A DNA stretch of 64,000 nt from a phage, in NCBI GenBank assembly GCA_012401045.1, contig GCA_012401045.1_4704.1. One strand, written 5' to 3'. The translations under genes were made by a program, and so were the position numbers. The notes under the pieces are model-generated. The model made no database searches. It was not told where the DNA came from and saw nothing but the letters and a program-made list of their open reading frames with translations. Below, one piece after another: positions 41,669 to 56,767 of this stretch (position 1 is the first letter of the stretch; each line of letters starts with the position of its first letter).

Positions 41669-44600
41669 TTATTTAGCGTCGTTAAAGTAAATATCAACAG
41701 CTCGTTCCGTTGCGTAGAGGAGACCAAGATTCACAGTCCCAACCACTTCCGGTGAACCGATGATACGGTTAGCGATACTGGTGCCACTGAAGATAGCATC
41801 AAGGGTGTGCCCGTCTTCGGTTTTGTTCACACCATGACCCACGGAAGAGACAACGGATTTCGCTTGAGCTGCGAAGGTACCTTTATCGCCCATCCCCGCA
41901 CCAAGGTCGTAACGCATGAAAATACGGATTGCGATCTGGTTCTCGCCTAACGGATTACCGTCTATTCTCACGTTACTGTTATTGATACGCCCCGTAGCTG
42001 CTTCGTTGAGTTTCAGTTCCTTAACGCGTTTAGCTCGCGCTTTATCTGCATCACCGACGAGCGCCGCCATGGTTTCACTCATATCCTCAATCTGAGCGCG
42101 GTACAACACATCGATCTGTACAACTTCACCATGAACGTCAGCACGTGGGTTATACTGACTCATACGACGTAATGCTTCAACGGCTTCCTGACTCTCATCA
42201 CTCAGATCGGTCGCAATCGGTTCTTCCAGTGTTGCAAGGATCGTTCGTGGTTCAACATGATCGCCGATTTTCACGAGACCACGAATGTTGAGATGGGCGT
42301 CAACGATGAGCGTACGGCTCTTAATCGATGGTGTTACGAGACGATCGGCAAGATTGTCGAAGATATACGAACTGTCCTCGTGAGTCTCTGGAATATCCAG
42401 AATACCGACAAGAGACAGAACACCTGCGCGCCAAACAACCTGACCTGGGTTCCACCAATCGCGTTTAAAATAAAGACGATGGAAGACCACCACATCCTGA
42501 TCCTTAACGCGATCCCCGACTTTATAATCGGTAATAAGATCGTGAGGATAATACTTACCTGGTCCTTTCCCGATTATCGTGCCGAGTTGGAAAACCTCTT
42601 CTCCTAACTCTGGATCGTCGTATTGTATCGTAAGCGCAGTTTTGGTGACCTTCTTAACAACACCATCGCCTTGGGCAGCTGCTGCGAAGAGCTTACCAAC
42701 ACGATGCGCGATAACGGTCTCACCGCCGGTGCGCCACGGTTGTACATCGTAACCCTCAGCGGCAATCATGCGGTTGTGTTGGATCCCGACGAAGACCAGA
42801 CGTTTTCCATCATCACGGTCTACGGCTGGAACAGCTAACGCCGACGTACTCATTACCGATGAGATACCGTCTGTCTTTTCATCGAATGGTCGTGTTTCAC
42901 CATACACCGACACGATATTAGCATTAGGTGCAAGGTAAGCTGAGATACCCACATCCCCACTATCTTTCGTACCCTCTGACACAATACCAACATCGGACTT
43001 GTCGTATTCACGATCACGTGCGCGTCGAAGCGATGTCTTTGAACGACCCCCGATACCGGTCATCGTTGCTTCTTCACCCTGCTTGATATCCAGCATCGGG
43101 TTGGTTTCATCGATCACGATGGACGCGCTGTCGTCGAGAATTTGGTTCCAGACGCTTACCGGACTGATTGAGATTTTCTGGCGATTTCCTTGACTGCTGT
43201 TCTCATTCTGACGAATAGCGCCAACCAGATCCTTATACACCAATTCAGCGAACTTATCGTACGTTTTAAAACGTTGGTAGTTCACATCGTTGGTGTTAGG
43301 TGCCCAGTCATCCAGAAGCAGTTCAACAGCACGCAGTAACAACATGGCGAAATCGGTAGGTTCTCCCATGTTCTGTAGCAACGTACGGCTTACCGGATCA
43401 ACGAAAAGACGCTCCATGAGTTCAAGTTCGCGTAAATGGCGAACCTTAAGTCCAGCACCATCAACAACGTTAAAATAGATATCTCGATTGTCGAAAGCAC
43501 CGCGAGCGTAACCGATGTAGTTACGGTATTCGTTAAACCCACCCAGCAACAACGTCGTCATGCGATCGTCTTTACTGAAGATCAAACTTTCGTCATCAAA
43601 GCTCACCGCGAATTCATCGGGTGCTAATCCCATACGAGAACCGCGAGGTACCGTACGATAGTTCGCTTTAAGATGTTCTAATAACGGGGTAAGTCCACCC
43701 AGATAACTTAGAACGACACCAACCGGAATACGTACACCCATGAATTCAAGATCGGCGGCTTCGATCGGCATCTTAGCCGCATTGATACCGAAGAAATCAG
43801 GGAACGTCCCTACAGGTGTTGGTGTTTGTCCTGACTGACAGATATAGAGCTGATTGCGTTTATCGATTGCTAAGAATTCACCCAGCGTGTTACGCGCAAA
43901 CGTCAGGAGCCCTTCGGCTAACTGTTCGTTGAACCGATCTTCCCCGATGAACTCCGGCAATGTCTTTGTATCGAGACGTATATCCCAATCAGCAAATTGG
44001 ATTTGGGTATAGTTGCGTGCAAGCACAGCGAAGTAATACGGGACTTTGACGGCCGGATCAAAGACGTTACCACGTTTTAACGTGGTTAAGGGTGAGGACT
44101 TATCGTAATACATCGCTGTAAGTTGGCGTGTTAACCAACGACCGGCGTTATTAACGACACGCTCTGAACGTTTAACAAACACCTTACCGTAGGCGGTACT
44201 CAACGCAACTTCGGATGATGATACCTTTCTAATAGGTTTATCAACACGTTGTTTACGCATCCGGTATTTGATGCCGTTAACGACATAAATGCCGTCCTTA
44301 CGAACCTTCGGCAACATCACCGGGAACGTGGTTGGGACACCGCCTACAGGGGCCAGTTTAATCGTGATAACTTGATAATCCCCCATCACGTCAACAACAT
44401 CTTCAACTTTATATCCCGTGACAGGGTAACCTGCCTGTTGTACGGCAACAACAGCGGCTGCGATGTCCTTTTGCATCACGTGTTCAACGTAATGTTTATC
44501 CCACACCGCAAGCGTCGATTTACATAGGCTCTTATCGACGATAACATCCGCTTCCGGCATAACCTTTGCTGGCGCTAATTTCGCGGCTTTTGGTTTAACT

Positions 44601-46015
44601 TCAACATACTCAGCAAGTGTTAATCCAGAACCGTCGGGTGCTTCGATTTCATGGATGGCGTCGGCATTACGCATCGCTGCTTTATATTGGACACCGCTTA
44701 ACTGACCCGCATCCGCCAGATCGCTCGCGCGCACCAACACCGCATCCGATAACGACTGAATATATTCACCGTGTGTTTTTGGTAACGTTGCCGCGTCAAA
44801 GACATCAACCTTTTCTTCTTCGGTATCGTCGGTAACGACCTCGAAGAGATCGTCGGTAATGTCCTGATCTTCATCGGGTTGGAAATCCGGCTGTACTTCT
44901 ACCCCGGGTACTTCACGGACATCTTCGAACGAGCGTTCTACAATGGCGTTCCACGCATCAGCGTCATCGTCTTCATCCGACCCACCAACCAACTCCGCTT
45001 CTAACTCATCGGGATCAAGAACAGTGGCCAGATCCTCACCGTTAGGAAGCACGACGTCGCGATCATCGTACTCTGCATCCGGGCTGTCCGCAAGAATATC
45101 TCGCTCTTGACGAAGAACCTGTTCCTCTTCTTGTTTCTGTTCTTCTTCATTCGCGCTCTGCGACCATAGACGTGTTACCGCCATCATCCAACGACGCTGG
45201 AAGGTTTCGAGTGTCGTTTTATCGAGTTCTTCCCCTTCCTTTACAAGCCCGGTACGCCATTCTTCCAACAGGCCGAGATTCAGCGTAAAGAAGTACACGC
45301 CGTCTGTAAATACAACGTTAAGCTTATCCAGCGTGGCTCTGTCTAACGAAGCCATCGTGCTGTTCTCACGATCGGTTCCCAGCCAGCGGAAGAAGTCAAA
45401 GAACGACAGCTCCTCCGGCGTAGCGAAATTCATGAGGTTGTTACGGGTCGGTGCCTGTTGCGTGGTACGCATCAACGAAATCTTCGGCAATGTTGACGGT
45501 ATACGGAACAACAGAAAGTGTTGGCGATCGCTTTGCTGCGCGATTTCGTTGGCTTTCGACCAAATTGTTTTACGTACGTTGAACCATTCATCATACCAAC
45601 GGGTGAGCGTTGGACGATAGATGTACATGTGGTTAAGATGTGCGTAGTTAGCAACGATCTGAGCGTTGATGTTTTTCTCCACCGTACTTAGATCGGTAAC
45701 CAAACGAAAACGACGATGTGACGCACGATAATCCAATTTCGCTCGTGGGAGCTGGAATCGCTGATCACGTCGAGGTGCACCCTGTTTGGTTGCGAGATCA
45801 TCAGCAAACGAAATCCATAGTTGAGCACTTTCTTTACTCAACATGTATTCGTTTTCTGGAGGACCTATCAATGAAGGATCCGTTGCGGTGTAATGATAGA
45901 CAGCATAACGTGGCAGCTGCAATAGCTGCACTAAACGTAATCTCGGTGACAATAGCTCTTGGTAGCGTCTGACGCCAAACTGTCGGTAGTAATCAAGGTA
46001 TTTAAGTTTTGCCAT
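41669..46015 (-). CDS. RNA polymerase beta-like subunit with long N-terminal extension (1448 aa), probably virion RNAP
   Basis: RpoB-like motifs: GIGGRSKTSLRRARD...DVGIVSEG...GDVGIS (fork/Rif region), LAVPAVDRDDGKRLV, VKIGDHVEP, GMGDKG near C-terminus; coupled 3 nt after beta' paralog. Confidence 0.6.
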   Translation of the reverse strand: MAKLKYLDYYRQFGVRRYQELLSPRLRLVQLLQLPRYAVYHYTATDPSLIGPPENEYMLSKESAQLWISFADDLATKQGAPRRDQRFQLPRAKLDYRASHRRFRLVTDLSTVEKNINAQIVANYAHLNHMYIYRPTLTRWYDEWFNVRKTIWSKANEIAQQSDRQHFLLFRIPSTLPKISLMRTTQQAPTRNNLMNFATPEELSFFDFFRWLGTDRENSTMASLDRATLDKLNVVFTDGVYFFTLNLGLLEEWRTGLVKEGEELDKTTLETFQRRWMMAVTRLWSQSANEEEQKQEEEQVLRQERDILADSPDAEYDDRDVVLPNGEDLATVLDPDELEAELVGGSDEDDDADAWNAIVERSFEDVREVPGVEVQPDFQPDEDQDITDDLFEVVTDDTEEEKVDVFDAATLPKTHGEYIQSLSDAVLVRASDLADAGQLSGVQYKAAMRNADAIHEIEAPDGSGLTLAEYVEVKPKAAKLAPAKVMPEADVIVDKSLCKSTLAVWDKHYVEHVMQKDIAAAVVAVQQAGYPVTGYKVEDVVDVMGDYQVITIKLAPVGGVPTTFPVMLPKVRKDGIYVVNGIKYRMRKQRVDKPIRKVSSSEVALSTAYGKVFVKRSERVVNNAGRWLTRQLTAMYYDKSSPLTTLKRGNVFDPAVKVPYYFAVLARNYTQIQFADWDIRLDTKTLPEFIGEDRFNEQLAEGLLTFARNTLGEFLAIDKRNQLYICQSGQTPTPVGTFPDFFGINAAKMPIEAADLEFMGVRIPVGVVLSYLGGLTPLLEHLKANYRTVPRGSRMGLAPDEFAVSFDDESLIFSKDDRMTTLLLGGFNEYRNYIGYARGAFDNRDIYFNVVDGAGLKVRHLRELELMERLFVDPVSRTLLQNMGEPTDFAMLLLRAVELLLDDWAPNTNDVNYQRFKTYDKFAELVYKDLVGAIRQNENSSQGNRQKISISPVSVWNQILDDSASIVIDETNPMLDIKQGEEATMTGIGGRSKTSLRRARDREYDKSDVGIVSEGTKDSGDVGISAYLAPNANIVSVYGETRPFDEKTDGISSVMSTSALAVPAVDRDDGKRLVFVGIQHNRMIAAEGYDVQPWRTGGETVIAHRVGKLFAAAAQGDGVVKKVTKTALTIQYDDPELGEEVFQLGTIIGKGPGKYYPHDLITDYKVGDRVKDQDVVVFHRLYFKRDWWNPGQVVWRAGVLSLVGILDIPETHEDSSYIFDNLADRLVTPSIKSRTLIVDAHLNIRGLVKIGDHVEPRTILATLEEPIATDLSDESQEAVEALRRMSQYNPRADVHGEVVQIDVLYRAQIEDMSETMAALVGDADKARAKRVKELKLNEAATGRINNSNVRIDGNPLGENQIAIRIFMRYDLGAGMGDKGTFAAQAKSVVSSVGHGVNKTEDGHTLDAIFSGTSIANRIIGSPEVVGTVNLGLLYATERAVDIYFNDAK

Positions 46016-46018
46016 GGG

Positions 46019-47707
46019 TTAGGCTCCACGAGGTCCCGTTAAGTTGCGTAATAGGAACGCAACCGTATCGTAACCAATATCGATGTTGAATTTATTTTTA
46101 CCACTTACCCAGAAAGCTCGCTTCTTGTGCGAGTTGGTAATTTCGTCAATAGCTTCCATGGAATAAAGAACGTTAACCGAGACCGTATCACCATCAAAGT
46201 CCCCACCAAGTCCGGCGAGGTATGGCGCAGGGACAATAGTCGTTTCTACGAACGAAGCATTAGGTAACCAGTCGGGGTATTCCCATGCGATAAATCGTTC
46301 ATCCGTTATTGGTTCCCAGTTACTATCCAGTTCGGTTTTCGGTTTTGCGGCGACGGTTGTACGTGCGTAACAGGTTAACGGGATAACGGATTGCATACCT
46401 GATACCGGATAACGTGTTACCATCGCAGCCAGGTTATTCCAGTACTTATATCCGGCAATATAGATAAGCTCGGTGTAAGTAATGGGGTGAACATCCGCGC
46501 CAGGTTTATTCAACATCTCCGGGGGTAATTCACTCATGCCACGGAATAACCGAAACGAATCGTTGTTCACATAGACGAGGCAAAGATATCGTCCATTGAC
46601 CATGATAGGCTCGTTACGCACGCCAGGATCGCTTAAGGTGTTCAGTAAACGTTCTATTCCGTCCCATGTTGTAAAGTCATCGATGGTGTCTGGATCAAGC
46701 GTGACGCGCTCACGTTCCATCGTTTCGGTATCAGTAAGTTCAACTTCTGTAACATCACGGACAAATATTTCCTGCAAAATACCGGTACGTAACGCATGTT
46801 GCGTTACTGGGAGAGCGGCTTTACTCATCTGGTATAACCCTAACTGAACCGCGGTACAGGAAGGCTGGTTAGGCGACCCTAATACCTCCGTTGTGGGGTT
46901 AATTGCCGAAATAACGTTACGGGTTGAGTTCCAAACGCGACGTGAACCAAACTTACCTTGGAAGATCCCTTTCTTACCCTGGAACATATCCAACAGTAAA
47001 GCGTAGATATCGTTGAATGTTCTCTGTAAGCTCCAGCGCTGGCCGTCGTAAACGGGATCGGAATAATCTTTTAATCCATCAGGGACGGTGTTAGAAATTG
47101 CAAGGAAACGACGATACAACTCCGTGATTTCTTGCTCGCTTTCATACCCACCTTCTTTTACTTCTATTTCACGTAAGCCTGCAGGCAATACCAGTAAGTG
47201 ACGGGTCATCGCTTTGAACATGTTCTCTTCGACAACTTTAATTCGTAGCTCTCGTTGAGCTGAACCCGTTGAAACGAACTTGATATCCGCGACGTGTTGT
47301 GCAAAGAACCCGTATCCTGTTTGTCCTGTTAATGCATCAGACGCAACGAAGTCGCGTTGTTCGGGATCCCACCGAGCGTACGCCTTCCCCGACATGATAT
47401 CGCCATAGAGGTGTTTTAATCGAATGAGACGGTCGTAAATGACAGGATGCAGGATTTCAACCTTGCATTCAATCACCGCAAATCGACGGTCTCGATCTTC
47501 ACTACCCGCACTACCAAAGATGGTGTAAGAATAGAAACCATCATCGTGGAAATTACCGGTGCTTGGGTCACGAATGCTCATGCTCGTGATCTTGGGGAGA
47601 AAACGTAACTGCTGTTTATCGAGGTGTAAAATACTAATATTAAACGGCTCTCTGACTTTAGCCATGGAGACACTCCTCTTTACCACCACCGGCTGCGGCG
47701 GTATCAT
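46019..47707 (-). CDS. RNA polymerase beta'-like subunit, N-terminal fragment (562 aa as tracked; alternative start ATG 47665 with AGAGGAG SD)
   Basis: LGGDFDGDTVSV catalytic-type motif about 55 aa from C-terminus; RFAVIECKVEILHPV near N-terminus; no zinc ribbon. Confidence 0.55.
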   Translation of the reverse strand: MIPPQPVVVKRSVSMAKVREPFNISILHLDKQQLRFLPKITSMSIRDPSTGNFHDDGFYSYTIFGSAGSEDRDRRFAVIECKVEILHPVIYDRLIRLKHLYGDIMSGKAYARWDPEQRDFVASDALTGQTGYGFFAQHVADIKFVSTGSAQRELRIKVVEENMFKAMTRHLLVLPAGLREIEVKEGGYESEQEITELYRRFLAISNTVPDGLKDYSDPVYDGQRWSLQRTFNDIYALLLDMFQGKKGIFQGKFGSRRVWNSTRNVISAINPTTEVLGSPNQPSCTAVQLGLYQMSKAALPVTQHALRTGILQEIFVRDVTEVELTDTETMERERVTLDPDTIDDFTTWDGIERLLNTLSDPGVRNEPIMVNGRYLCLVYVNNDSFRLFRGMSELPPEMLNKPGADVHPITYTELIYIAGYKYWNNLAAMVTRYPVSGMQSVIPLTCYARTTVAAKPKTELDSNWEPITDERFIAWEYPDWLPNASFVETTIVPAPYLAGLGGDFDGDTVSVNVLYSMEAIDEITNSHKKRAFWVSGKNKFNIDIGYDTVAFLLRNLTGPRGA

Positions 47708-47910
47708 CTGAACACACGAGAGACGTAATGGGTGATGGCGTCACCCATCGCTTCCTTGCTTGAGGCGAGGAAGTTATTAGGTTACGTACCTGCCTGATTT
47801 TATCAGGTGGGCGATGTGTGAAGTTACGCTTCAACATTATCAATGCCGAAGGTAAACTTCGTGCATCACGTTCCAACGTAACATGGGAACGTATCGAACT
47901 GGAGGTATAC

Positions 47911-50900
47911 ATGGTAGATAAAACCCGTGTTGAGGGTGATGATAATTGGGACAACTGGGATGAAGACTTCTCCCTGGATCTCGATTTTAACGAACCCAAA
48001 GACGATCGTAAACCGATAACACGCTTTGCGATAGGAGCGGTTAAAGGTGCTGCTGAGGATCTTACTTCCTACGAAAGAATGAAGGAGATCGCCAGAAACG
48101 CATTGCCTAAGGGCTACAGCGACGGTATGGATCTTATTGATTCCGCCGTCGGATCCACGAAGGAACTATACAATGAAGCCGTTCGTGACGTTCTTCCTAA
48201 GGTCCAAAGCTCAAAACGGTTAGCCGCACAACTGACCAAGAAATACCGTGCGAGCATGCCCGATTTCTCGAAGAAAATTCTTGAGCAATGGGAGCGAGAA
48301 GCCAAGGAAGAAGACGAACGTAAACAAGCTGAAGAAACCCTTCGTCAACGCATGGCGAGCGCGGGGGACGATGAGATCGCCCGCAAGGTTGCCGAGGCAT
48401 TAGGCGAATCAGCAAACCAAAGCGCGGATCAGTTCGCTGAACAGCAAGCGAAAGAGAGTATCCGTGACGATATCGCTGACAAACGGTACGCTGTAACCAA
48501 CAAACAAATGAGTGCGATGCAAGAAGGCGTCGCCAAGATGGTTGGTTTCAACAATGAATTCGCTGCACGCTACATGCGTAAAAGCCTGGAACTGAAATAT
48601 CGTTCCTTAGCGATTCAACGTGCAAGTTTTGATCAGCATAAAAAGTTAGCCGAAGTCTATATCGGTTTATTACAAAACATCCAGAAGAATACGGCTTTAC
48701 CTGATGCGGCTAAAGCAAAAATGTCGGAAGAATTCCGCCGTAGCGCGTACCAACGTTTCTTTGGTAATGCGTTAGATGCGATGAGTTCTTTCGAGAACCG
48801 TTTCTTTGCCGATGTTAAGAAAAACCTTGCCACCAACGCATTAGGTGCTTTAAAAGGCGTCGTGTCTGGCGCAAACGATGCGTTATACGGTTTAAACGAA
48901 GCACGTGACTCGATATCCATGATGGATGGGATGGGGTCAGATGGCGATATTAAGGAAATGCAAGGAAAGATGTTGGGTCAGTTCATTGGCTCAACTGTCG
49001 CACCATGGATGGCTAATAAAGGCAGGATGGCGTTACGCGATTTAGCAAAACGTCACCCCAATGCTAAATTCGCTAGCGCGTTAAAAGCCGTGGATCAAGG
49101 TGGTGAGGCTGCCGCTTACACAACGCGTAATCTCGGTAAACTGCTCCAGGAAGATATTCGTAAGAACGAATTCAATCTTAGCGATCCGTTTTACAAGCAA
49201 TTGTTACGCGGTGCAGGGCGTTGGGCGTTCAACATGGACAGCGGACGTAACTTCCGCGTGATGAACGACACCGCTGAAACACTGGCAGAGCAAACATCTT
49301 TCGACGGTTTAACCTACCGCAGCATCAACGAGGTTATTCCAGGCTTTCTTGCACGCATTCTGAAAAGCAGTGAAGGCATCCGCACCGGAAACAGCGATCC
49401 TGACTACGAGGTCTATGACGGCATCAGCGGGCAATTCGTGTCTCAGCGCACGCGTGAGCAAAGCGTCAACGACACGCTGTTTAACAAACGTTCATTTGGT
49501 TATTACGCCAGCCGTTTCAACGAGGTTATCTCGGTCATCGATCCCGATAAGCAATTATCGGAAAAAGCCAGGAAGGCACTGGCTAAACAGTTGGCACGAG
49601 ATAGCGACGCGAACATCGCATTCGACCCGGCTCGTTTTACGGATGAAAGCAACTTCGATCGTAGTATCGACCGTGACGCTATTAAGGAACTTTCCACGTA
49701 CTTTCGTGACCGTTACGGTATTCGTGACGATATCAACGATAAGGGGGAACGTCATCAGGTCATTGGAAACCGCGGGCAATATTACACGGAACGTAACCGA
49801 GCCGATCTTCGTTACGGTAATCTGAAATCTTTACAACCGGATATCCAGCGTAACCTTAACCTGCTGAAACGTACTGGTGACGTCCAATATCTGGAACGGA
49901 TCGGGATTGTAACGAGAAATAGCGACGGAAGTTACTCGGTTAATCACGATAGGTATTTCTCTGAAATCGATCGGTACATCGACCGGCCGGAGTACGCTGA
50001 CCGCGGCGATGTTAATACGCGATTAACCGCTCAGGAAACAAGAGCGCTGGCGCTGGGTTATCGTGACGCAAAACCATCAGCTGGTGACGTCCAAAATGTC
50101 GGCCTGCCGAACATCGGTCGTAAGGCTGCTGGAACAGTAACCGTTGATGAAAACATCGGCTACGATAAATGGTGGAACGACACAGGTGTTATCACCACAT
50201 CGCTTGAAGAACAGAATCGAGCGTGGCAAGAGCTTTATCTCGAGGCGTTGTCCGAAGCATCCGAACAACGTGTTGAAATGCTTGCGCTGCTGAAAGCCAT
50301 TTCTGAGAAAGACTGGTCTAATAACGTTTCGCTGGATGGTGAAGATGTACCTGAAGGTACAGCACCCATTTCATTTATCGATCGTGCCAAACAAAAACTC
50401 GGCGGACGCAACCTGTTTAAAGGCGGCCGCAATCTCCTCTGGAAAGGAATTAAAAATACCGCACGTTTAGGTGTTAAAGGCGCACGCTGGGGTGCAGAAC
50501 GCACGTTGGGTAGTTTGGTAAATTCTGGCCGACGCATTATCAATTTCAACCGCTTCGTGTTCGGCGCATTATCCAAGGTTGATCAGGTTCCGTTTGACAT
50601 TTACGTTAAAGGGGAATCCCAACCACGCATATTGGTTGCTAAACTTCGTCAGGGGTTATACTTCGATGAAGCGACAGGAAAAGCCGTAAAACGGATGAAG
50701 GATATCAAAGGCCCACTCGTTGATGCGGATGGAAACATCGTAATCAGCAACGAGGATATCGAGAAAGGGTTGGTCACTCGCGCTGGTCGTGCCTTTGAGA
50801 ATTCAGGACTTAAAGCATGGGCACGTGAAGGTCTTAATGGAATAACGACGGCATTAAGTCTCCCACGGATGTTAAAACGCGGTGCGGTTGAGATCTACAA

Positions 50901-53900
50901 ACAGCTTGACAAAACACCCGACGTTTACGTCAAGGGAGAATCAACGCCTCGTCTGTTGTCCATGGTGTTAGCAGCGGGTGGGTATTTCCGTCGCTCGGAT
51001 GGACAAGTCATCAAAAATCTTGAAGACATCGATGGTGATGTTGTTGATGCACAAGGTAACGTCGTACTTACGCTTGCCGACATGCAGAAAGGACTTGTCG
51101 ATAAATACGGTAAAGCGATTCGTCGTTTAAAAGAAAAGCTCATCAACTTCGGTGTAAAAGCTTTTACGTTACCGTTAACGTTGCTACGTAAGACAAAGGA
51201 CATCCTTAAAGCCCTTCCAGGTAAAACCGTTAACGGTCTACGGCGGATGGGATTAAATTTCCAATCACCTGACGCGTTACTGGTGGGAACAACGTCGAGC
51301 ATGGTAGATCGCCTCGATGCTATTTACCAGCTTCTTGACCAGCGTATGCCGGGAGGTGATAAGGATTACCGCGATTGGAATGGCGATGGTGTTCGAGAAG
51401 GATCGTTGGAAGACCTGAAACGTAAGCGTGAAGCCAAGGAAAACGGTAAGGATGACATCGGCAAAGATTCCAATAAAGGAGAAGAAAAGGAGAAGAAACG
51501 AGGGTTACTCGGAAGCCTTTTCGATATGCTCGGTGATACCGCAATAGGTAAACGTCTCATGGCGAGTCCGCTTGGAAAAATTCTGGGTGGTCTTGGGGCG
51601 GTGTTAAGCGGCGGTGCGTCGTTAACTGGGTTGTTGGGCAAAGGTCTCATTAGAGGAACCGGCGCGCTGGTCAAGGGAGGACTAAGTGCGGCAGGATGGT
51701 TAGGACGTGGTGCGTTAATGGCGGGTGGGGCCGCGTTGAACGCCGTTGGTGGGTTATCGGGATTAGGTGCATTCCTCATCTCACCTGTTGGGCTTGCTAT
51801 CGCTGGCGGTGCGTTGGCTGCTTATGCTGGATGGAAGATCTATCAGCATTTCGCCGAGAAGCCTGACCCGATGCAGAAGCTCCGTCTTATTGCATACGGT
51901 GCAAAAGGGGACGATAAAGACTTCAATAAGAAGCTGCTTGCGACAGAAACATACCTCACCGACCATGTGGTTATGACCGGGGATACCATCGGATTCGATC
52001 CGAAAGCCGACTCGGAAAAGATTCTCGAAATCTGGGAATTGTCTCTGGAAGATTCCGACCGAATGAACGAATGGAAACGCTGGTATCTGCATCGTTTTAT
52101 TCCTGTTTTCGCTCGCGCGTACAAACTCTGGAAAGAGCATATGCCGGACGAGAAGAAATACATGGAAATGGATAAATATCCGAACGGTGAGAACAAAGTG
52201 AAATGGTCGGAAGCGTTTATCTGGCCTTCCGATAGTCCTGATGGTCCGTATTACGTCGAAGCTAACCCGTTGGGTTCTTCTGGTGCGACGCGTTATATTG
52301 CTGGTCAAGACGTCAAAACCTTGATGCTGAAACAACTCGAAGCCATCAAGAAAGAGTACCAGAATCAGATTAAGCAATACACTCATGATGAGGCTATTGC
52401 TGATTGGTCACGGATGTCTGACACACAACGTAAATCCGTTGCGCCTAACGCATTACGTGGTCAGAAAGCGTCATTACGTTTTAACGATAAACGTTACAAC
52501 AGCGCTGGTGCTAAAGGACGACAGAAACTGGATGCAACCGCGGTTATTGAAAGCGTAGACCGCCGTGGTAGGAAATGGGTTGCCGGTGGATACATCGATG
52601 AACTCACCAGTCTTCGTGTTCGTGCGTACGGTATTAAGGTTCCGTTGTTAAGTCAGATAAAAGTGCTGATGGAACTTGAAGACGCTGTAGAACCTGGCGT
52701 TGTCGCTGAAGGTAAAGGTGTTAAATACGGTGGCGATCTTGTCGCGCTCTACAAGAAATTCGCGACGAAGTTCGGAAGAGACGTTAACAGCAAGCATGAT
52801 CAGGATATCTGGTTTGCTTGGATGAACAACCGTTTCCTGCCCGTCTTTTTAACCTATTACCAACAAGTTAGCGACATGGGCGGTCAAGGACTTCTGTCCG
52901 ACGTGGTACAGAACCTGAAAGACAGCCAACGCTGGGAAATCGGTGAAGCACTTGTCGCAACGCAATACCGTGATGAGAAAGGTACACTGCAGCCTGTATG
53001 GTCCTGGAATAGTTGTGGTTTCTCCGGTACTGAAGCTAACACCACCAGCAGTTCAACAAAGAGCCAACTCGATCTGTTAAAAGAATATGCGGATAAAGAG
53101 AAGGTTCGTGAGAAGAACGCGGAAGCATCGCAAGAGGATACCGATAAATTATCGAAGATCCAAGAGCTGATGATGAAGCAGGCTGGGTACGAGAAGAAAG
53201 ACGGTGTCTGGCAGAAGAAATCTCGCATTACCGGCGGGATGAGTAACTCCGAAGCGAATTACAACCCCAATAGGAATAAGGTCGGTGAAAGCAGCTTTAC
53301 GGCTTCGGCTACTTCCAATGCGGGATTAGGGTCAACCGGCGATCTTACCGGATTGCCTAACATGGGCTTACAGAAACCTGCAATGGGACCAGGTCCTGAA
53401 GCTGGACGTCGTGCGCTTGTTAAATCCGCTGTAAAACGCGGCATTACCGATCCGATGGAAATGGCGATGTTCCTTGCGAACATCGAACATGAATCGGGGA
53501 ACTACACTCACGTACGTGAGGGGAACTATAAGACACCAGAGCGTCTTAAACAGGTCTTCCCTTACAAATTCCGTGATGTGCAGGATGCCGCACAGACGAT
53601 CAGCATGGGTCCGGAAGTGGTATTCGAACGTGTGTATGGTAATCGTAAAGATCTCGGAAACACACAGAAAGGAGACGGGGCGAAGTATTTAGGACGTGGC
53701 TTCATTCAGGTTACCGGTAAAGCTAACTACGCTCGTCTGTCCAAGACCTTGAATAAGGATCTTGTCAGCGATCCGACCTACCTGGAAACGCCGGAAGGTG
53801 CAGCGGAAGGTAGTGTCGCATGGTGGCTCAACCGAGGTAACGTATTACGCGATCCCGCAAAACGGGGTGACGTACGCCAAGTTCGTTATCTAGTTAACGG

Positions 53901-54576
53901 TGGCTATAACGGATTACGTGATGTTGAACAACGTTCTGCATATTGGATTCAGGCAGCTAAGAATGGCACCCTGAAGAAAATGATGGACGAGTTATCAGGG
54001 TCAACATCAGACGATCAAGCTGAAGGACCGACCACTGCCGAACAGGTGAAGAACGAAGCAGCACAAGAGGCAAACGGAACACCTGCTGTAAGCAACGATC
54101 CGCAAGCCCCAGTATCTTCTACCACCCCTGAAGCTAAACCGTCTGCGGCTGCCGGGACGGCCCCAGCACCTGGGGAAGCATCACCAACGCCTGGAAGTTT
54201 CGAAACAGCAAAAGCCGCGGCAGGACAACCGACATCAACTCCAGCACCTAGCGATTTGCCGTCAAACCCAGGCGCAAATCGAGGGATATCGGTTCCGAAT
54301 ACACCTGCACAGGTTGCGCAGTCTGCGACACAAACGTCGGCTGCAAGTGAGAACTTCTACGGTAGCGCAGGTGAAATTCTCCGACAGCAGCTGACCACAC
54401 AGCAGAACATCGAGAAGAACACCGGTAGAACGAATGAACTTATTTCGGAATTAATCCAAGCCGTTAAGGGTTCTTCTATCGGTAAGGGTTCTGCAAGTCC
54501 TTCTCAACAACAGACGATGTCACTACCTAATCGTCCGCAAGGAATCTCTCCAACACGGACAAGGTACGCACAGTAG
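47911..54576 (+). CDS. giant virion-associated protein with C-terminal GH19-like peptidoglycan hydrolase domain (about 2221 aa; track start GTG 47818)
   Basis: GH19 motifs FLANIEHESGNY, YLGRGFIQVTGKANY, SVAWWLN near 53400..53965; Gly-zipper hydrophobic segment; ATG 47911 has GGAGG SD. Confidence 0.7.
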   Translation: MVDKTRVEGDDNWDNWDEDFSLDLDFNEPKDDRKPITRFAIGAVKGAAEDLTSYERMKEIARNALPKGYSDGMDLIDSAVGSTKELYNEAVRDVLPKVQSSKRLAAQLTKKYRASMPDFSKKILEQWEREAKEEDERKQAEETLRQRMASAGDDEIARKVAEALGESANQSADQFAEQQAKESIRDDIADKRYAVTNKQMSAMQEGVAKMVGFNNEFAARYMRKSLELKYRSLAIQRASFDQHKKLAEVYIGLLQNIQKNTALPDAAKAKMSEEFRRSAYQRFFGNALDAMSSFENRFFADVKKNLATNALGALKGVVSGANDALYGLNEARDSISMMDGMGSDGDIKEMQGKMLGQFIGSTVAPWMANKGRMALRDLAKRHPNAKFASALKAVDQGGEAAAYTTRNLGKLLQEDIRKNEFNLSDPFYKQLLRGAGRWAFNMDSGRNFRVMNDTAETLAEQTSFDGLTYRSINEVIPGFLARILKSSEGIRTGNSDPDYEVYDGISGQFVSQRTREQSVNDTLFNKRSFGYYASRFNEVISVIDPDKQLSEKARKALAKQLARDSDANIAFDPARFTDESNFDRSIDRDAIKELSTYFRDRYGIRDDINDKGERHQVIGNRGQYYTERNRADLRYGNLKSLQPDIQRNLNLLKRTGDVQYLERIGIVTRNSDGSYSVNHDRYFSEIDRYIDRPEYADRGDVNTRLTAQETRALALGYRDAKPSAGDVQNVGLPNIGRKAAGTVTVDENIGYDKWWNDTGVITTSLEEQNRAWQELYLEALSEASEQRVEMLALLKAISEKDWSNNVSLDGEDVPEGTAPISFIDRAKQKLGGRNLFKGGRNLLWKGIKNTARLGVKGARWGAERTLGSLVNSGRRIINFNRFVFGALSKVDQVPFDIYVKGESQPRILVAKLRQGLYFDEATGKAVKRMKDIKGPLVDADGNIVISNEDIEKGLVTRAGRAFENSGLKAWAREGLNGITTALSLPRMLKRGAVEIYKQLDKTPDVYVKGESTPRLLSMVLAAGGYFRRSDGQVIKNLEDIDGDVVDAQGNVVLTLADMQKGLVDKYGKAIRRLKEKLINFGVKAFTLPLTLLRKTKDILKALPGKTVNGLRRMGLNFQSPDALLVGTTSSMVDRLDAIYQLLDQRMPGGDKDYRDWNGDGVREGSLEDLKRKREAKENGKDDIGKDSNKGEEKEKKRGLLGSLFDMLGDTAIGKRLMASPLGKILGGLGAVLSGGASLTGLLGKGLIRGTGALVKGGLSAAGWLGRGALMAGGAALNAVGGLSGLGAFLISPVGLAIAGGALAAYAGWKIYQHFAEKPDPMQKLRLIAYGAKGDDKDFNKKLLATETYLTDHVVMTGDTIGFDPKADSEKILEIWELSLEDSDRMNEWKRWYLHRFIPVFARAYKLWKEHMPDEKKYMEMDKYPNGENKVKWSEAFIWPSDSPDGPYYVEANPLGSSGATRYIAGQDVKTLMLKQLEAIKKEYQNQIKQYTHDEAIADWSRMSDTQRKSVAPNALRGQKASLRFNDKRYNSAGAKGRQKLDATAVIESVDRRGRKWVAGGYIDELTSLRVRAYGIKVPLLSQIKVLMELEDAVEPGVVAEGKGVKYGGDLVALYKKFATKFGRDVNSKHDQDIWFAWMNNRFLPVFLTYYQQVSDMGGQGLLSDVVQNLKDSQRWEIGEALVATQYRDEKGTLQPVWSWNSCGFSGTEANTTSSSTKSQLDLLKEYADKEKVREKNAEASQEDTDKLSKIQELMMKQAGYEKKDGVWQKKSRITGGMSNSEANYNPNRNKVGESSFTASATSNAGLGSTGDLTGLPNMGLQKPAMGPGPEAGRRALVKSAVKRGITDPMEMAMFLANIEHESGNYTHVREGNYKTPERLKQVFPYKFRDVQDAAQTISMGPEVVFERVYGNRKDLGNTQKGDGAKYLGRGFIQVTGKANYARLSKTLNKDLVSDPTYLETPEGAAEGSVAWWLNRGNVLRDPAKRGDVRQVRYLVNGGYNGLRDVEQRSAYWIQAAKNGTLKKMMDELSGSTSDDQAEGPTTAEQVKNEAAQEANGTPAVSNDPQAPVSSTTPEAKPSAAAGTAPAPGEASPTPGSFETAKAAAGQPTSTPAPSDLPSNPGANRGISVPNTPAQVAQSATQTSAASENFYGSAGEILRQQLTTQQNIEKNTGRTNELISELIQAVKGSSIGKGSASPSQQQTMSLPNRPQGISPTRTRYAQ

Positions 54577-54625: not shown

Positions 54626-56767
54626 ATGGGTATTCTTGTTCAAAACGCCCTAATCACCAAACAAGCGTTTTTATTACCAGGCGATAGCAGCACTCTGAGC
54701 GCCGACATGATTAAAGCGAGACATACACCGTATTCCTACGATAACGTCGATGATACCACCTTAGGTGGGAACTGGGTGCTTAACCCGCCGCCGCAATATA
54801 CAAAATTTGCCGACATCAAAGAACGCCGACGTGCGGTTATGCCGGGATCAACGGGCATGGGTCGAGGCTATAGTGAAAGCATTAACAGCTTTAAAGAGGT
54901 CGTTACATTACGATTCGGTAAACCTCGCTTTACAGGCGCAAGTATCTTCTTTACTGATTTCTACGATGCGGATGTTGCCGTAACGGTTAAAACCGGTCGC
55001 GATCCCGGTATTCTTTATTACGCAGCCAAAGCGTATACCACCGTTCTTTCTTACCTCACACCTCTACCCTACTTGTATATGGTTGGACGTATCGGTCGAT
55101 ATTTCCTGGGTAAGCCTACCAGTCAATATTACTATCAAGTACCAACCATGCACGTGTATTGGGCGTCTTTCCAAACACTGGTAAACCAAACAGCGATAAA
55201 CATGGGTCTTATCGCCGGTGCCGGTAAAGATAAAGGCTATGTGGAAGAAGGGGGTACCGTACTCCACCAATATTCAATCGGTGGTCAGAACGTTGAAGAA
55301 TTCATCAACTACGCCTCTAAGACGCTACCGGGGATTTATAAGAAAGGTGGTGGGATCGATATCTACCAGATCGCAACACGACGTCAGCGCATACAGAACG
55401 CATGGGTACGTCGTATTCAATCCATGATGGAAAACGATTACTCGTCTTACGAGGAGTTCTGGAACGATCTTGATAAACGACTTGATAGCGGAGCATTTCC
55501 ATCGGATGTAACCGGCCGTACGTTAACGCAGTATCTCGCCGACACGCAGAAGTCTGCTGTTTACAGTGCGACAGCTGGTGATAATAAACAAACGATGGAC
55601 GACCTTTTATTCGGAAGGGCCTCATACACCAACAAGGACGCTGATGCCAACTTCAATGTCTCTGCAGTCACCTCCGACGGCGGTACGTCAACACAAAGTC
55701 AGGGTACAACAGCCAATGTCGGTAATTCGACATCAGGGACAACGCAAGCTTCAACAGCAGCATCGACGGCTGGAGGTGCGAACGTACAGAGCAAAGGAAT
55801 CGGGCAAACGAACGCAGCCGAAGAAGCTACATTTCTTGATCTGATGGATGCTGAACTGGCTGACGGTGCCCAGTTTATCAGTTTTCGAGTCGATTCTGTC
55901 ACCAGTGTAACCGAAACGTTTTCAAACAGCGCTTCAGAAAGTTCTATTGCACAGACGATGAATAGCCGTGCACAAGCGAACATCGAACGTCGTTTCACCC
56001 TTTCCGGTGGTAATACAGGTTGGGCTGTACTAGACGAAGCAATCAAAGCCGGTTCCGATCTCGTCAACGGTGCTATTTCCGGGATGGGTCTGGATGGTAT
56101 TTTTGGGGCCTTCATGGGTTCCGGCTTCGCTGACATTCCGAAATTCTATTCTGGATCGTCAGTAAGTCTACCGCGCGCCGATCTGACGATGGAATTGCGT
56201 TCCTGGAGTGGGGATCGTTGGTCGATCTTTACGAACCTCATGGTGCCTCTTTTAGCTATCCTTGCAGGTGGTTTACCTCAGGCTACCGGTAAATCGTCCT
56301 ACGGGATGCCGTTCATGTGTGAATGTTATATCCCTGGTAAAGTCCAGATTAAAATGGGTCTTATCGACAACATCACTGTGACGCGTCACGTTGGAAACGT
56401 GCCATCAACACGTGAGCGGTTACCGTTGGGTATCGATGTCAGCTTCAGCGTTTATGACCTGTCGTCCATCGTCGCCATGCCGATCACAACGACGGCCGCA
56501 TCGATCGCAAAATTGGATCCTCGTGGCTTCTTAAGTGATCTTCTTGCTGACGATACCCCACTCAACAACTATCTTGCTGTATTATCAGCATTGACGCTTA
56601 CGGAACAAGTTTACATGATTCCTGATTTAAGTCGTCGCATGCATAAAACCATGGCTGATATCGATAGTTTCTGGAGCAAAGGTAATTTTGCTAGCTGGTT
56701 GTCTGACACCATGCCTGGCAGGATAGCATCAGGGCTGTTATGGAAACGTACAGAACGTCCGTTCTGA
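54626..56767 (+). CDS. putative virion protein (713 aa)
   Basis: ORF track; GAGGAA SD; Ser/Thr/Gly-rich low-complexity linker; follows giant virion gene. Confidence 0.6.
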   Translation: MGILVQNALITKQAFLLPGDSSTLSADMIKARHTPYSYDNVDDTTLGGNWVLNPPPQYTKFADIKERRRAVMPGSTGMGRGYSESINSFKEVVTLRFGKPRFTGASIFFTDFYDADVAVTVKTGRDPGILYYAAKAYTTVLSYLTPLPYLYMVGRIGRYFLGKPTSQYYYQVPTMHVYWASFQTLVNQTAINMGLIAGAGKDKGYVEEGGTVLHQYSIGGQNVEEFINYASKTLPGIYKKGGGIDIYQIATRRQRIQNAWVRRIQSMMENDYSSYEEFWNDLDKRLDSGAFPSDVTGRTLTQYLADTQKSAVYSATAGDNKQTMDDLLFGRASYTNKDADANFNVSAVTSDGGTSTQSQGTTANVGNSTSGTTQASTAASTAGGANVQSKGIGQTNAAEEATFLDLMDAELADGAQFISFRVDSVTSVTETFSNSASESSIAQTMNSRAQANIERRFTLSGGNTGWAVLDEAIKAGSDLVNGAISGMGLDGIFGAFMGSGFADIPKFYSGSSVSLPRADLTMELRSWSGDRWSIFTNLMVPLLAILAGGLPQATGKSSYGMPFMCECYIPGKVQIKMGLIDNITVTRHVGNVPSTRERLPLGIDVSFSVYDLSSIVAMPITTTAASIAKLDPRGFLSDLLADDTPLNNYLAVLSALTLTEQVYMIPDLSRRMHKTMADIDSFWSKGNFASWLSDTMPGRIASGLLWKRTERPF

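What the first reader, a model, noticed from the sequence alone, without database searches (positions are those of the whole stretch)
53400..53965. GH19-type peptidoglycan hydrolase domain embedded in a giant virion protein of about 2220 aa
The C-terminal region carries the GH19 hallmarks FLANIEHESGNY (catalytic Glu region), YLGRGFIQVTGKANY and SVAWWLN. It is followed by a Pro/Ala/Ser/Thr-rich tail (about 54000..54350). Giant virion proteins of phiKZ-like phages carry a cell-wall-degrading domain for entry; as I recall the phiKZ one is a lytic transglycosylase, so a GH19 module here would be a domain swap.
Basis: partly seen in the sequence, partly recalled or inferred. Interest (0 to 1): 0.5.

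Follow-up and report, generated by a model that had tools for sequence, protein, structure and literature searches.

The report
Cell-wall-cutting module in giant tail protein
A 2,221-residue tail protein of a Goslar-like E. coli jumbo phage carries a lysozyme-type (GH19) cell-wall-cutting domain where phage phiKZ has a lytic transglycosylase; this is real, but the same gene is already annotated in Goslar and the GH19 version is common in related phages.

Summary
One ORF (47911..54576, 2,221 aa) contains all three quoted motifs. Residues 1826-2030 (nt 53386-54000) form a confidently predicted GH19 endolysin-type fold. The two catalytic Glu (E1861, E1870) and the water-positioning Thr (T1935) are present. 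A disordered Pro/Ala/Ser/Thr tail follows.

The protein is the ortholog of phiKZ gp181 by scaffold similarity and gene order. phiKZ gp181 and SPN3US gp239 carry a Pfam SLT domain at the same position, and nothing aligns between the window protein and phiKZ gp181 after residue ~1730. Among 94 scaffold homologs, 56 carry a phiKZ-type SLT module and 8 carry GH19. Others carry M23, CHAP or VanY. GH19 versions sit in several separate scaffold lineages, so the lytic module behaves as an exchangeable cassette.

It is not new. The window is 97% identical to phage Goslar, whose 98.6%-identical protein is annotated "putative chitinase" (COG3179) and was detected in virions at about 3-8 copies. Roughly 96 of 239 phage records with this scaffold carry the GH19 version, including phage EL and the Ea35-70 group.

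Most likely role: a tail-borne muramidase that opens the peptidoglycan at infection. "Chitinase" and "tail fiber" are probably misnomers. Interest is low.

The parts
47911..54576 (+). Gene for the giant tail protein (2,221 aa plus stop; an alternative GTG start at 47818 gives 2,252 aa as annotated in Goslar). Ortholog of phiKZ gp181, SPN3US gp239 and Goslar YP_009820915.1.
   Evidence: PHROG_3201 E=9.5e-292
48013..49989 (+). Most conserved N-terminal scaffold region (aa 35-693). It aligns with phiKZ gp181 aa 46-704 at 24% identity.
   Evidence: 239 phage records match the N-terminal 700 aa
50575..51165 (+). Two tandem ~80-aa repeats (aa 889-970 and 998-1085; motif D-x-YVKGE..P.L...G.Y...G..I....DI.G.VVD..GN.V). 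The repeats are also present in phiKZ gp181.
   Evidence: local alignment score 180 against shuffles 28 +/- 4.7; phiKZ HSPs
51556..51834 (+). Glycine-rich hydrophobic stretch (aa 1216-1308) with 2-3 membrane-span-like segments, preceded by a highly charged stretch.
   Evidence: Kyte-Doolittle windows up to 1.91; 22-27% Gly. Low AF2 confidence.
51871..53193 (+). Two predicted folded alpha/beta domains (aa 1321-1491 and 1561-1761) that are weakly similar to each other (shared W..W...RF.PVF motif). Conserved in phiKZ and SPN3US; no PDB fold match.
   Evidence: AF2 pLDDT 70-94; internal alignment score 69 against shuffles 33 +/- 4.8
53206..53385 (+). Ser/Thr/Gly/Asn-rich linker before the enzyme domain (aa 1766-1825), predicted disordered.
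   Evidence: AF2 pLDDT below 50; sequence
53386..54000 (+). GH19 endolysin-type muramidase domain (aa 1826-2030). Catalytic codons: E1861 at 53491-53493, E1870 at 53518-53520, T1935 at 53713-53715. Other active-site residues: H1860, Y1909, Q1933, V1995, N1996, R2008.
   Evidence: 14 synonymous against 1 non-synonymous codon difference from Goslar
54013..54360 (+). Pro/Ala/Ser/Thr-rich disordered tail (aa 2035-2150).
   Evidence: 52-62% PAST; AF2 pLDDT about 27. The tryptic peptide AAAGQPTSTPAPSDLPSNPGANR from this stretch was found in Goslar virions.
54367..54573 (+). C-terminal helix (aa 2153-2187) and a short basic end; conserved within the Goslar clade only.
54626..56767 (+). Downstream neighbour (713 aa). 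Ortholog of Goslar gp203 (77.4 kDa), a modelled component of the tail tube initiator complex, and of phiKZ gp182 by position.
41669..47707 (-). Upstream neighbours: two virion RNA polymerase beta-subunit genes (1,448 aa and 562 aa), giving the same gene order as phiKZ gp178/gp180-gp181 and SPN3US gp241/gp240-gp239.

Best explanation
The region encodes a catalytically intact GH19 endolysin-type muramidase module. It is held between two disordered linkers near the C-terminus of the giant tail protein of a Goslar-like chimallivirus; this protein is the ortholog of phiKZ gp181 and SPN3US gp239. A few copies per virion travel with the tail. I infer that they sit in or at the base of the tail tube in a tape-measure-like position. 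When the tail contracts the protein is expelled into the periplasm. There the GH19 module hydrolyses the MurNAc-beta-1,4-GlcNAc bond of the murein locally, so that the tube and DNA can pass. The glycine-rich hydrophobic stretch may help cross or gate the inner membrane. In phiKZ and most relatives the same job is done by an SLT-type lytic transglycosylase module, which cleaves the same bond non-hydrolytically. The two module types have replaced each other several times on this scaffold. Shown here: domain identity, intact active site, orthology, synteny, and variability of the module. Taken from the literature: virion presence and copy number of the ortholog, tail dependence in SPN3US, and muramidase chemistry of GH19 endolysins. 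Inferred: location in the tube, ejection, and the role of the hydrophobic stretch.
For: Domain identity. PHROG_181 endolysin scores 1e-53. PDB phmmer hits are GH19 endolysins at 1e-23 to 4e-19, with GH19 chitinases only at about 1e-3. The AF2 model has pLDDT 90.8. Foldseek top hits are 7R6S, 9EOI, 4OK7, PWe2, TseP and KTN6 gp46, with TM about 0.7 against about 0.5 for chitinases.

Active site. E48, E57, Y96 and T122 of the domain are invariant in 61 homologs, and Q120 and N183 are nearly so. All nine PaGH19Lys active-site residues are matched, one as I to V (alignment with PMC12329726).

Selection. The GH19 domain differs from Goslar at 14 synonymous and 1 non-synonymous codon.

Orthology and synteny with phiKZ gp181 and SPN3US gp239.

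Virion location. The Goslar ortholog gave 34 peptides and an estimate of 3.4-8 copies per virion, was labelled 'Tail protein', and a peptide from the C-terminal tail was detected. SPN3US gp239 is called the tape measure protein and is absent from tailless particles. The downstream gene encodes the tail tube initiator.

Chemistry. PaGH19Lys is a muramidase with no chitinase activity.

Module exchange. Of 94 scaffold homologs, 56 carry SLT and 8 GH19, with M23, CHAP and VanY in others. P0018 (GH19) groups with P0047 and P0049 (SLT) at 100% bootstrap. P0018 and P0049 share conserved flanks on both sides of a non-alignable module.
Against: No activity data exist for this protein or for any GH19-type member of the family. 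The Pfam GH19 score is below the gathering threshold. Neither the Goslar nor the phiKZ whole-virion cryo-EM paper models or even mentions this protein, so its place in the tail is unresolved. Those papers assign the central spike to other proteins, so the older 'cell-puncturing needle' picture does not hold. The AF2 model of the C-terminal half shows several globular domains rather than one long helix, which is atypical for a classical tape measure. A folded GH19 trimer would be a tight fit in a tube lumen. The MS copy-number estimate is stated as rough (about +/- 50%).
Confidence: 0.75

Rival explanations
1. It is a chitinase, as the Goslar GenBank record and several RefSeq records of relatives name it. 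It would degrade chitin or a chitin-like polysaccharide rather than murein.
For: Weak Pfam 'Chitinase class I' hit. COG3179 'predicted chitinase' in the Goslar annotation. GH19 chitinases appear among the weaker PDB matches.
Against: The best sequence and fold matches are all to the endolysin subfamily: E 1e-23 against about 1e-3, and TM 0.7 against 0.5. The characterised close structural relative PaGH19Lys has no activity on chitin and is a muramidase. The domain contains the three-helix insertion typical of endolysin-type GH19. The host is E. coli, which has no chitin.
Confidence: 0.03
2. It is the phage's endolysin, acting from within at the end of infection, as homologs in Aeromonas, Vibrio and Klebsiella jumbo phages are annotated. 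It would not be an entry enzyme.
For: Annotations such as 'putative endolysin' on homologs. The module's closest relatives outside the family are small free-standing endolysins.
Against: It is a 2,221-aa structural protein found in purified virions at a few copies. In SPN3US its presence depends on tail assembly. It is syntenic with tail and baseplate genes. A 250-kDa protein with about 1,800 residues of conserved non-enzymatic scaffold is not what lysis requires. A secondary contribution to lysis cannot be excluded.
Confidence: 0.07
3. There was no swap. The GH19-like and SLT-like modules are the same ancestral lysozyme-superfamily domain that diverged in place beyond recognition.
For: GH19 and GH23/SLT belong to the same lysozyme-like superfold (established knowledge). 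The modules occupy the same position in the protein, about aa 1830-2040.
Against: The window module is 30-46% identical to free-standing GH19 endolysins and shows no detectable similarity to the phiKZ module. Scaffolds that are 49-62% identical (P0018 against P0049 and P0047) carry GH19 against SLT between conserved flanks. Unrelated folds (M23, CHAP, VanY) occur on the same scaffold in other members. Monophyly of the GH19-bearing scaffolds had 0% bootstrap support.
Confidence: 0.05
4. The module is a catalytically inactive structural or murein-binding domain that only anchors the tail protein to the cell wall.
For: No biochemical data exist for this protein. The Pfam score is sub-threshold.
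Against: Every catalytic and active-site residue defined in characterised GH19 endolysins is conserved. The domain is under strong purifying selection. The SLT counterpart in phiKZ gp181 is reported as highly active, at 60,000 U/mg (review PMC5380687).
Confidence: 0.05

Closest known systems
Escherichia phage vB_EcoM_Goslar protein Goslar_00232 (QBO64023.1 / YP_009820915.1; 'putative chitinase', RefSeq 'tail fiber protein')
   Same: Same gene: 96.7% nucleotide and 98.6% amino-acid identity over the full length, with the same neighbours. It is annotated with COG3179 and was detected in virions as 'Tail protein' at about 3-8 copies.
   Different: There are 32 substitutions, only one of them in the GH19 domain. 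Goslar's record starts at the upstream GTG (2,252 aa). The window phage lacks the 2,045-nt group I intron region found in the adjacent vRNAP gene of Goslar.
Pseudomonas phage phiKZ gp181 (2,237 aa), structural peptidoglycan hydrolase
   Same: Orthologous scaffold: aa 35-693 and 887-1730 align at 24-25% identity. Same gene order next to the vRNAP beta genes and gp182. Similar length. The muralytic module sits at the same relative position, followed by a low-complexity tail.
   Different: The phiKZ module is Pfam SLT (PF01464, 28-33 bits, above threshold) at aa 1885-1978. Here it is GH19. There is no similarity after aa ~1730. The expected chemistry differs: a lytic transglycosylase would give a 1,6-anhydro product, whereas a GH19 enzyme is an inverting hydrolase.
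Salmonella phage SPN3US gp239 (2,372 aa, 259 kDa), called the tail tape measure protein
   Same: Homologous scaffold (E=2e-18 and 1e-9) and the same synteny. It is a virion protein that is absent from tailless particles.
   Different: It carries an SLT module (38.7 bits, aa 1983-2071). The tape-measure role is an assignment made in those papers and has not been demonstrated by length-change experiments, as far as I could read.
GH19-type members of the same family in cultured jumbo phages (Pseudomonas phage EL, Erwinia Ea35-70/RAY group, Ralstonia RSL2, Aeromonas PS1/D3, Klebsiella Miami/N1M2, Vibrio pTD1)
   Same: The scaffold segment plus GH19 module is covered at 80% or more in 96 phage records, at 27-32% identity. 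They are annotated 'lysozyme domain protein', 'chitinase', 'endolysin', 'structural lysozyme' or 'tape measure protein'.
   Different: They are only distantly related in sequence, belong to other genera, and infect other hosts.
Free-standing GH19 endolysins: PaGH19Lys (PDB 9EOI), SPN1S endolysin (4OK7), KTN6 gp46 (8P8E)
   Same: Same fold (TM about 0.7), about 28-30% identity, and the same catalytic Glu/Glu/Thr and cleft residues.
   Different: They are proteins of about 200 aa that act from inside the cell at lysis. Here the module is embedded at aa 1826-2030 of a 2,221-aa virion protein between disordered linkers.
Other virion-associated lysins (T4 gp5 lysozyme, T5 Pb2 tape measure with muralytic region, T7 gp16 SLT)
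   Same: Same functional logic: a tail- or core-borne murein-degrading module used at entry (review PMC5380687).
   Different: No sequence relationship to the scaffold. The enzyme families and the positions in the virion differ.

Membership tests
Glycoside hydrolase family 19, endolysin subfamily | Significant sequence similarity to family members or the family HMM | tested here: met
   phmmer against PDB: 9EOI 1.2e-23, 7R6S 1.2e-22, 4OK7 3.7e-19. PHROG_181 1e-53. Most of the 120 best relatives carry precomputed PF00182. However, Pfam PF00182 itself scores 18.2-23.3 bits, below its 25.5 gathering score.
Glycoside hydrolase family 19, endolysin subfamily | Bilobal alpha-helical GH19 fold with a deep cleft | tested here: met
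   AF2 model with pLDDT 90.8 and pTM 0.86. Foldseek top eight hits are GH19 endolysin-type structures, TM 0.61-0.74; chitinases score about 0.5.
Glycoside hydrolase family 19, endolysin subfamily | Two catalytic glutamates 9 residues apart plus a Ser/Thr that positions the water (E49/E58/T130 in SPN1S numbering) | tested here: met
   E1861, E1870 and T1935 are present. They are invariant in a 61-sequence alignment and were mapped on the 9EOI alignment using PMC8547705 and PMC12329726.
Glycoside hydrolase family 19, endolysin subfamily | Muramidase activity on peptidoglycan (inverting hydrolysis of MurNAc-GlcNAc) | not testable with these tools
   Needs the expressed protein and muropeptide analysis.
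phiKZ gp181 / SPN3US gp239 giant tail protein family (PHROG_3201) | Homologous scaffold of about 1,700 aa | tested here: met
   PHROG_3201 9.5e-292. BLASTP to phiKZ gp181 5e-45 and 2e-36. BLASTP to SPN3US gp239 2e-18.
phiKZ gp181 / SPN3US gp239 giant tail protein family (PHROG_3201) | Conserved gene order: divergent from the vRNAP beta-subunit genes and followed by the gp182-like tube-initiator gene | tested here: met
   Goslar gp203 assignment
phiKZ gp181 / SPN3US gp239 giant tail protein family (PHROG_3201) | Muralytic module near the C-terminus | tested here: met
   A module is present at the equivalent position, but it is GH19 rather than the SLT of phiKZ and SPN3US. The family as a whole is variable at this site.
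phiKZ gp181 / SPN3US gp239 giant tail protein family (PHROG_3201) | Low-copy component of the virion tail | not testable with these tools
   Known only for orthologs: Goslar MS and SPN3US tailless mutants.
Tail tape measure proteins | Protein length determines tail length; the protein lies inside the tail tube | not testable with these tools
   Not modelled or mentioned in the Goslar or phiKZ cryo-EM papers. No deletion or duplication experiments were found.
Tail tape measure proteins | Predominantly long alpha-helical, extended architecture with hydrophobic segments | tested here: inconclusive
   A hydrophobic Gly-rich stretch is present at aa 1216-1308. However, the AF2 model of aa 1022-2221 shows several compact domains and long disordered parts rather than one extended helix. 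The N-terminal 1,021 aa were not modelled.
Lytic transglycosylase (Pfam SLT / GH23) | SLT domain match | tested here: not met
   No SLT hit in the window protein at E<=0.1 for the whole protein or E<=1 for the isolated domain. phmmer with the phiKZ SLT module does not hit the Goslar clade.

The most novel reading that the evidence does not exclude
The muralytic module of the gp181-family giant tail protein is a recombination cassette bounded by low-complexity linkers. It has been replaced repeatedly and independently across chimalliviruses, with SLT, GH19, M23, CHAP/lysozyme-2 or VanY modules found in different members. The GH19 modules found on unrelated scaffolds appear to be each other's closest relatives, which would mean exchange among jumbo phages rather than repeated capture from endolysins. 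If the choice of module tracks host murein chemistry or periplasmic lysozyme or transglycosylase inhibitors, it would be a host-range determinant. As far as I could find, this pattern is not spelled out in the papers I could search.
Probability: 0.4. Interest if true: 0.35.

Novelty: already known. Interest (0 to 1): 0.2.

Why it matters
It matters mainly as annotation hygiene. Names such as 'chitinase', 'tail fiber protein' and 'endolysin' on this family are misleading. The protein is best described as a tail-associated, tape-measure-like giant protein with a GH19 muramidase entry module.

There is a modest practical side. The SLT module of phiKZ gp181 is reported as one of the most active muralytic domains (PMC5380687). 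A GH19 endolysin showed about 10,000-fold the activity of hen egg white lysozyme (PMC12329726). The isolated module (aa 1826-2030) is therefore a reasonable enzybiotic candidate against E. coli.

The family-wide module exchange is a tidy example of non-orthologous domain displacement. It also gives natural boundaries for engineering. Finally, the location of this 250-kDa protein is still missing from both published whole-virion structures.

Tried and rejected
1. Pfam alone gave only sub-threshold GH19 hits and NCBIfam gave nothing. I considered 'not really GH19'. I rejected this after the PDB sequence search, the homolog annotations, the fold search and the catalytic-residue mapping.

2. My first phiKZ fetch took the wrong region. 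The phiKZ loci did not appear in the script sandbox, so the gp181 sequence was pasted in.

3. A first bootstrap used a Kimura distance that produced NaN at high divergence and is disregarded. It was redone with a Poisson distance. The trees are neighbour-joining on very divergent sequences, and deep branches are unreliable. Only the well-supported local groupings are used.

4. An iterated HMM search for a family-wide conserved C-terminal end found only the Goslar clade.

5. The GH19-module tree has only 15 sequences, because most small endolysins lack the helical insertion and were filtered out. The apparent clustering of the giant-protein GH19 modules is therefore only suggestive.

6. A 57-sequence alignment failed, so a 22-sequence one was used.

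7. A fold search with the C-terminal-half model returned only GH19 hits. The two other folded domains have no listed PDB match.

8. Literature searches for a structural placement of gp181 or its Goslar ortholog found none. Neither whole-virion paper mentions it in the main text. A search for phage EL gp183 was uninformative.

9. The older description of gp181 as a 'needle-like cell-puncturing device' (review) is not adopted. In the Goslar structure the spike and spike cap are other proteins.

Full report
What is there. The window holds one very long ORF on the + strand, 47818..54576. The likely start is the ATG at 47911, which has a GGAGG 7-8 nt upstream and gives 2,221 aa. Homologs at 48% identity are 2,222-2,225 aa long and align from residue 3-4. 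The stretch after the domain is 52-62% Pro/Ala/Ser/Thr over aa ~2035-2150, nt 54013-54360.

Where the window comes from. The gene is 96.7% identical in DNA and 98.6% in protein to Goslar_00232 of Escherichia phage vB_EcoM_Goslar, a nucleus-forming jumbo phage. That protein is annotated 'putative chitinase ... conserved domain COG3179' in GenBank and 'tail fiber protein' in RefSeq. The whole 30-kb neighbourhood is colinear with Goslar at 97% identity, with one exception noted below.

Is it GH19? Pfam's Glyco_hydro_19 model matches only a 40-residue core. It scores 18.2 bits for the whole protein and 23.3 bits for the isolated domain, below its 25.5-bit gathering score. NCBIfam finds nothing. 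Taken alone this would be inconclusive, but every other test is clear.
- PHROG_181 ('endolysin') matches at 1e-53.
- A sequence search of the PDB finds the GH19 endolysins PaGH19Lys 9EOI (1.2e-23), 7R6S (1.2e-22), PWe1/PWe2 and SPN1S 4OK7 (3.7e-19). Classical GH19 chitinases score only around 1e-3.
- Most of the 120 closest relatives in the 5.8-billion-protein collection are small proteins of 150-270 aa that do carry PF00182, often with a PG_binding_1 domain.
- An AlphaFold2 model built on 61 of these has mean pLDDT 90.8 and pTM 0.86.
- The model's best eight Foldseek matches in the PDB are GH19 endolysin-type structures (TM 0.61-0.74). GH19 chitinases follow at about 0.5.

Active site. The GH19 Engineering Database paper gives the catalytic pair and the water-coordinating residue of the endolysin subfamily as E49, E58 and T130 in SPN1S numbering (PMC8547705). 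The PaGH19Lys paper lists the active site as H50, E51, E60, Y103, Q127, T129, I187, N188 and R197. It shows that E60Q nearly abolishes activity. It also shows that the enzyme is a muramidase cleaving MurNAc-beta-1,4-GlcNAc and has no activity on chitin (PMC12329726). Using the HMMER alignment to 9EOI, these residues map to H1860, E1861, E1870, Y1909, Q1933, T1935, V1995, N1996 and R2008 of the window protein. All are conserved, with one I to V change. In the 61-sequence alignment E48, E57, Y96 and T122 (domain numbering) are invariant, and Q120 and N183 are nearly invariant. Against Goslar the domain shows 14 synonymous but only 1 non-synonymous codon difference. I conclude that this is an intact GH19 endolysin-type module and that its expected activity is muramidase. 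'Chitinase' is a name inherited from the family's plant members.

The protein that carries it. PHROG_3201 matches at 9.5e-292. BLASTP to phiKZ gp181 (2,237 aa) aligns aa 35-693 and 887-1730 at 24-25% identity, with E=5e-45 and 2e-36. The gene order is the same in all three phages. The gene lies divergent from two virion-RNA-polymerase beta-subunit genes and is followed by a ~700-aa gene. SPN3US gp239 (2,372 aa) is also homologous and syntenic.

Along the window protein I find the following parts:
- a conserved N-terminal region;
- two tandem ~80-aa repeats, aa 889-970 and 998-1085 (score 180 against 28 +/- 5 for shuffles);
- a very charged stretch followed by a Gly-rich hydrophobic stretch with 2-3 membrane-span-like segments, aa 1216-1308;
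- two confidently predicted folded domains, aa 1321-1491 and 1561-1761, which are weakly similar to each other and have no listed PDB match;
- a disordered Ser/Thr/Gly linker, aa 1766-1825;
- the GH19 module, aa 1826-2030;
- the disordered PAST tail, aa 2031-2150;
- a terminal helix.

The enzyme is thus an independently folding bead between two flexible linkers.

Is it a virion protein? For the Goslar ortholog, yes. In the supplementary mass-spectrometry table of the 2026 Goslar virion structure preprint, YP_009820915.1 ('putative chitinase', 248,684 Da) was identified with 34 peptides and 24.5% coverage. It is labelled 'Tail protein' and estimated at 3.4-8.0 copies per virion. One listed peptide, AAAGQPTSTPAPSDLPSNPGANR, lies in the PAST tail, so the C-terminal tail is present in particles. 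That sequence is identical in the window. The downstream gene product (Goslar gp203, 77.4 kDa; window 54626..56767) is modelled in that structure as part of the tail tube initiator complex, and the next gene is an inner-baseplate component. In SPN3US the homolog gp239 is called the tail tape measure protein and is missing from tailless particles of a gp64 amber mutant (PMC5105663, PMC5694885). Neither the Goslar preprint nor the phiKZ 'structural atlas' mentions or models the protein in the main text. In Goslar the spike and spike cap are other proteins. The old 'cell-puncturing needle' assignment quoted in reviews is therefore unlikely, and a symmetry-mismatched or disordered position inside the tube is plausible but unproven. 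The AF2 model of the C-terminal half is not a single long helix, so I treat 'tape measure' as a working label only.

The domain swap. phiKZ gp181 has a Pfam SLT domain above threshold at aa 1885-1978 (28.4 bits for the whole protein, 32.9 for the isolated domain, against 21.3). SPN3US gp239 has one at 1983-2071 (38.7 bits). The window protein has no SLT match. Past residue ~1730 it shows no similarity to phiKZ gp181.

To see how general this is, I searched with the scaffold only (aa 1-1730) and obtained 94 homologs of 1,500-3,000 aa. phmmer with the two modules finds the phiKZ-type SLT module in 56 of them and the window-type GH19 module in 8. Precomputed Pfam hits show Peptidase_M23 in 3 and CHAP and/or Phage_lysozyme2 in 7. 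VanY appears in several, mostly together with SLT. About 15 have no recognised module.

On a neighbour-joining tree of the N-terminal scaffold, the GH19 bearers fall in at least four places. The bootstrap results are as follows:
- Goslar clade: 100%.
- P0018 (GH19) grouped with P0047 and P0049 (both SLT): 100%.
- P0043 (GH19) inside an SLT group: 91%.
- Monophyly of all GH19 bearers: 0%.

P0018 and P0049 are 49% identical over their first ~1,200 residues and 40% over the last ~150. Their enzyme modules, lying between these conserved parts, do not align. This is a cassette-like replacement, not divergence in place. In a small tree the GH19 modules of the giant proteins group together, with one 272-aa protein among them. 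That hints at exchange among jumbo phages, but the sample of 15 sequences is too small to be firm.

How common is the GH19 version among cultured phages? 239 records in the phage collection match the N-terminal 700 aa at E<=1e-8. For a query spanning the last scaffold domain plus the GH19 module (aa 1560-2035), 96 records cover at least 80%. Both counts include GenBank/RefSeq duplicates. The 96 include Pseudomonas phage EL ('putative phage-related lysozyme domain'), the Erwinia Ea35-70/RAY group ('putative lysozyme domain protein') and Ralstonia RSL2. They also include Burkholderia FLC phages, Aeromonas PS1/D3 ('chitinase', 'putative endolysin') and Klebsiella N1M2 ('putative structural lysozyme') and Miami ('tape measure protein'). 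The GH19 form is thus a frequent, already annotated state of this family.

Mechanism proposed. A few copies of the giant protein are built into the tail together with the tube-initiator and hub. On contraction the protein is released into the periplasm. The GH19 module, on its flexible linkers, hydrolyses glycan strands locally. The hydrophobic Gly-rich stretch may insert in the inner membrane. The SLT modules of phiKZ-like relatives cut the same glycosidic bond by a different chemistry, which explains why the two are interchangeable. The steps after 'built into the tail' are inference by analogy with other virion-associated lysins (PMC5380687) and with phiKZ gp181. My recollection of Briers et al. 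2008 (a paper I could not read here) is that the isolated gp181 domain (aa 1880-2042) is strongly muralytic and that its C-terminal tail enhances activity.

Verdict. The feature is already known: it is the annotated Goslar gene, and its type is common in the family. The only mildly new element is the explicit picture of repeated cassette exchange at this site. Interest is 0.2.

Noticed in passing
window 46019..47707 (- strand), breakpoint between 46198 and 46200; Goslar locus L001 8245-10289: The window is colinear with Goslar except that a 2,045-nt Goslar segment is absent. That segment holds the annotated group I intron (Goslar_00229) and a 490-aa ORF (Goslar_00230, similar to phiKZ ORF179). 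As a result the virion-RNA-polymerase beta-subunit gene, which is split in Goslar, is one uninterrupted 562-aa ORF here. This is an intron-less allele, and it gives the exact insertion boundaries in Goslar.
   Followed up: partly
window 50575-50820 and 50902-51165: Two tandem ~80-aa repeats inside the giant protein (D-x-YVKGE...G.Y...DI.G.VVD..GN.V...KGLV), highly significant against shuffles. They are also recognisable in phiKZ gp181 and in the family consensus. Function unknown.
   Followed up: partly
window 51871-52383 and 52591-53193: Two confidently predicted folded domains upstream of the GH19 module look like an old internal duplication (shared LR..AYG and W..W...RF.PVF motifs). They are conserved in phiKZ and SPN3US and have no listed PDB fold match.
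   Followed up: partly
window 51556-51834: Glycine-rich hydrophobic stretch (aa 1216-1308) with membrane-span-like segments, preceded by a stretch with 53% charged residues. It is reminiscent of the hydrophobic segments of tape measure proteins that are thought to enter the host membrane.
   Followed up: no
proteins P0018, P0047, P0049 (homologs found): Three full-length homologs of the giant protein come from NCBI assemblies named as Burkholderiaceae isolates (Caballeronia arationis, Paraburkholderia adhaesiva, Paraburkholderia sp. HC6.4b). The contigs are 144-493 kb long, which suggests jumbo-phage genomes carried in or co-assembled with bacterial isolates. One is mis-named 'cell pole-organizing protein PopZ'.
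   Followed up: no
window 47818 versus 47911: The Goslar record starts the giant gene at an upstream GTG (2,252 aa). The ATG 93 nt downstream has a strong Shine-Dalgarno sequence and matches the N-termini of the 48%-identical homologs, so the annotated start is probably 31 codons too long.
   Followed up: partly
phiKZ literature (PMC13250141): In the phiKZ whole-virion structure the endolysin-type lytic transglycosylase gp144 is itself a structural component: six copies link the neck whisker collar to the sheath. phiKZ virions would therefore carry two SLT-type enzymes. According to the Goslar preprint, Goslar has no identified homologs of the phiKZ whisker-ring proteins gp144 and gp34.
   Followed up: no
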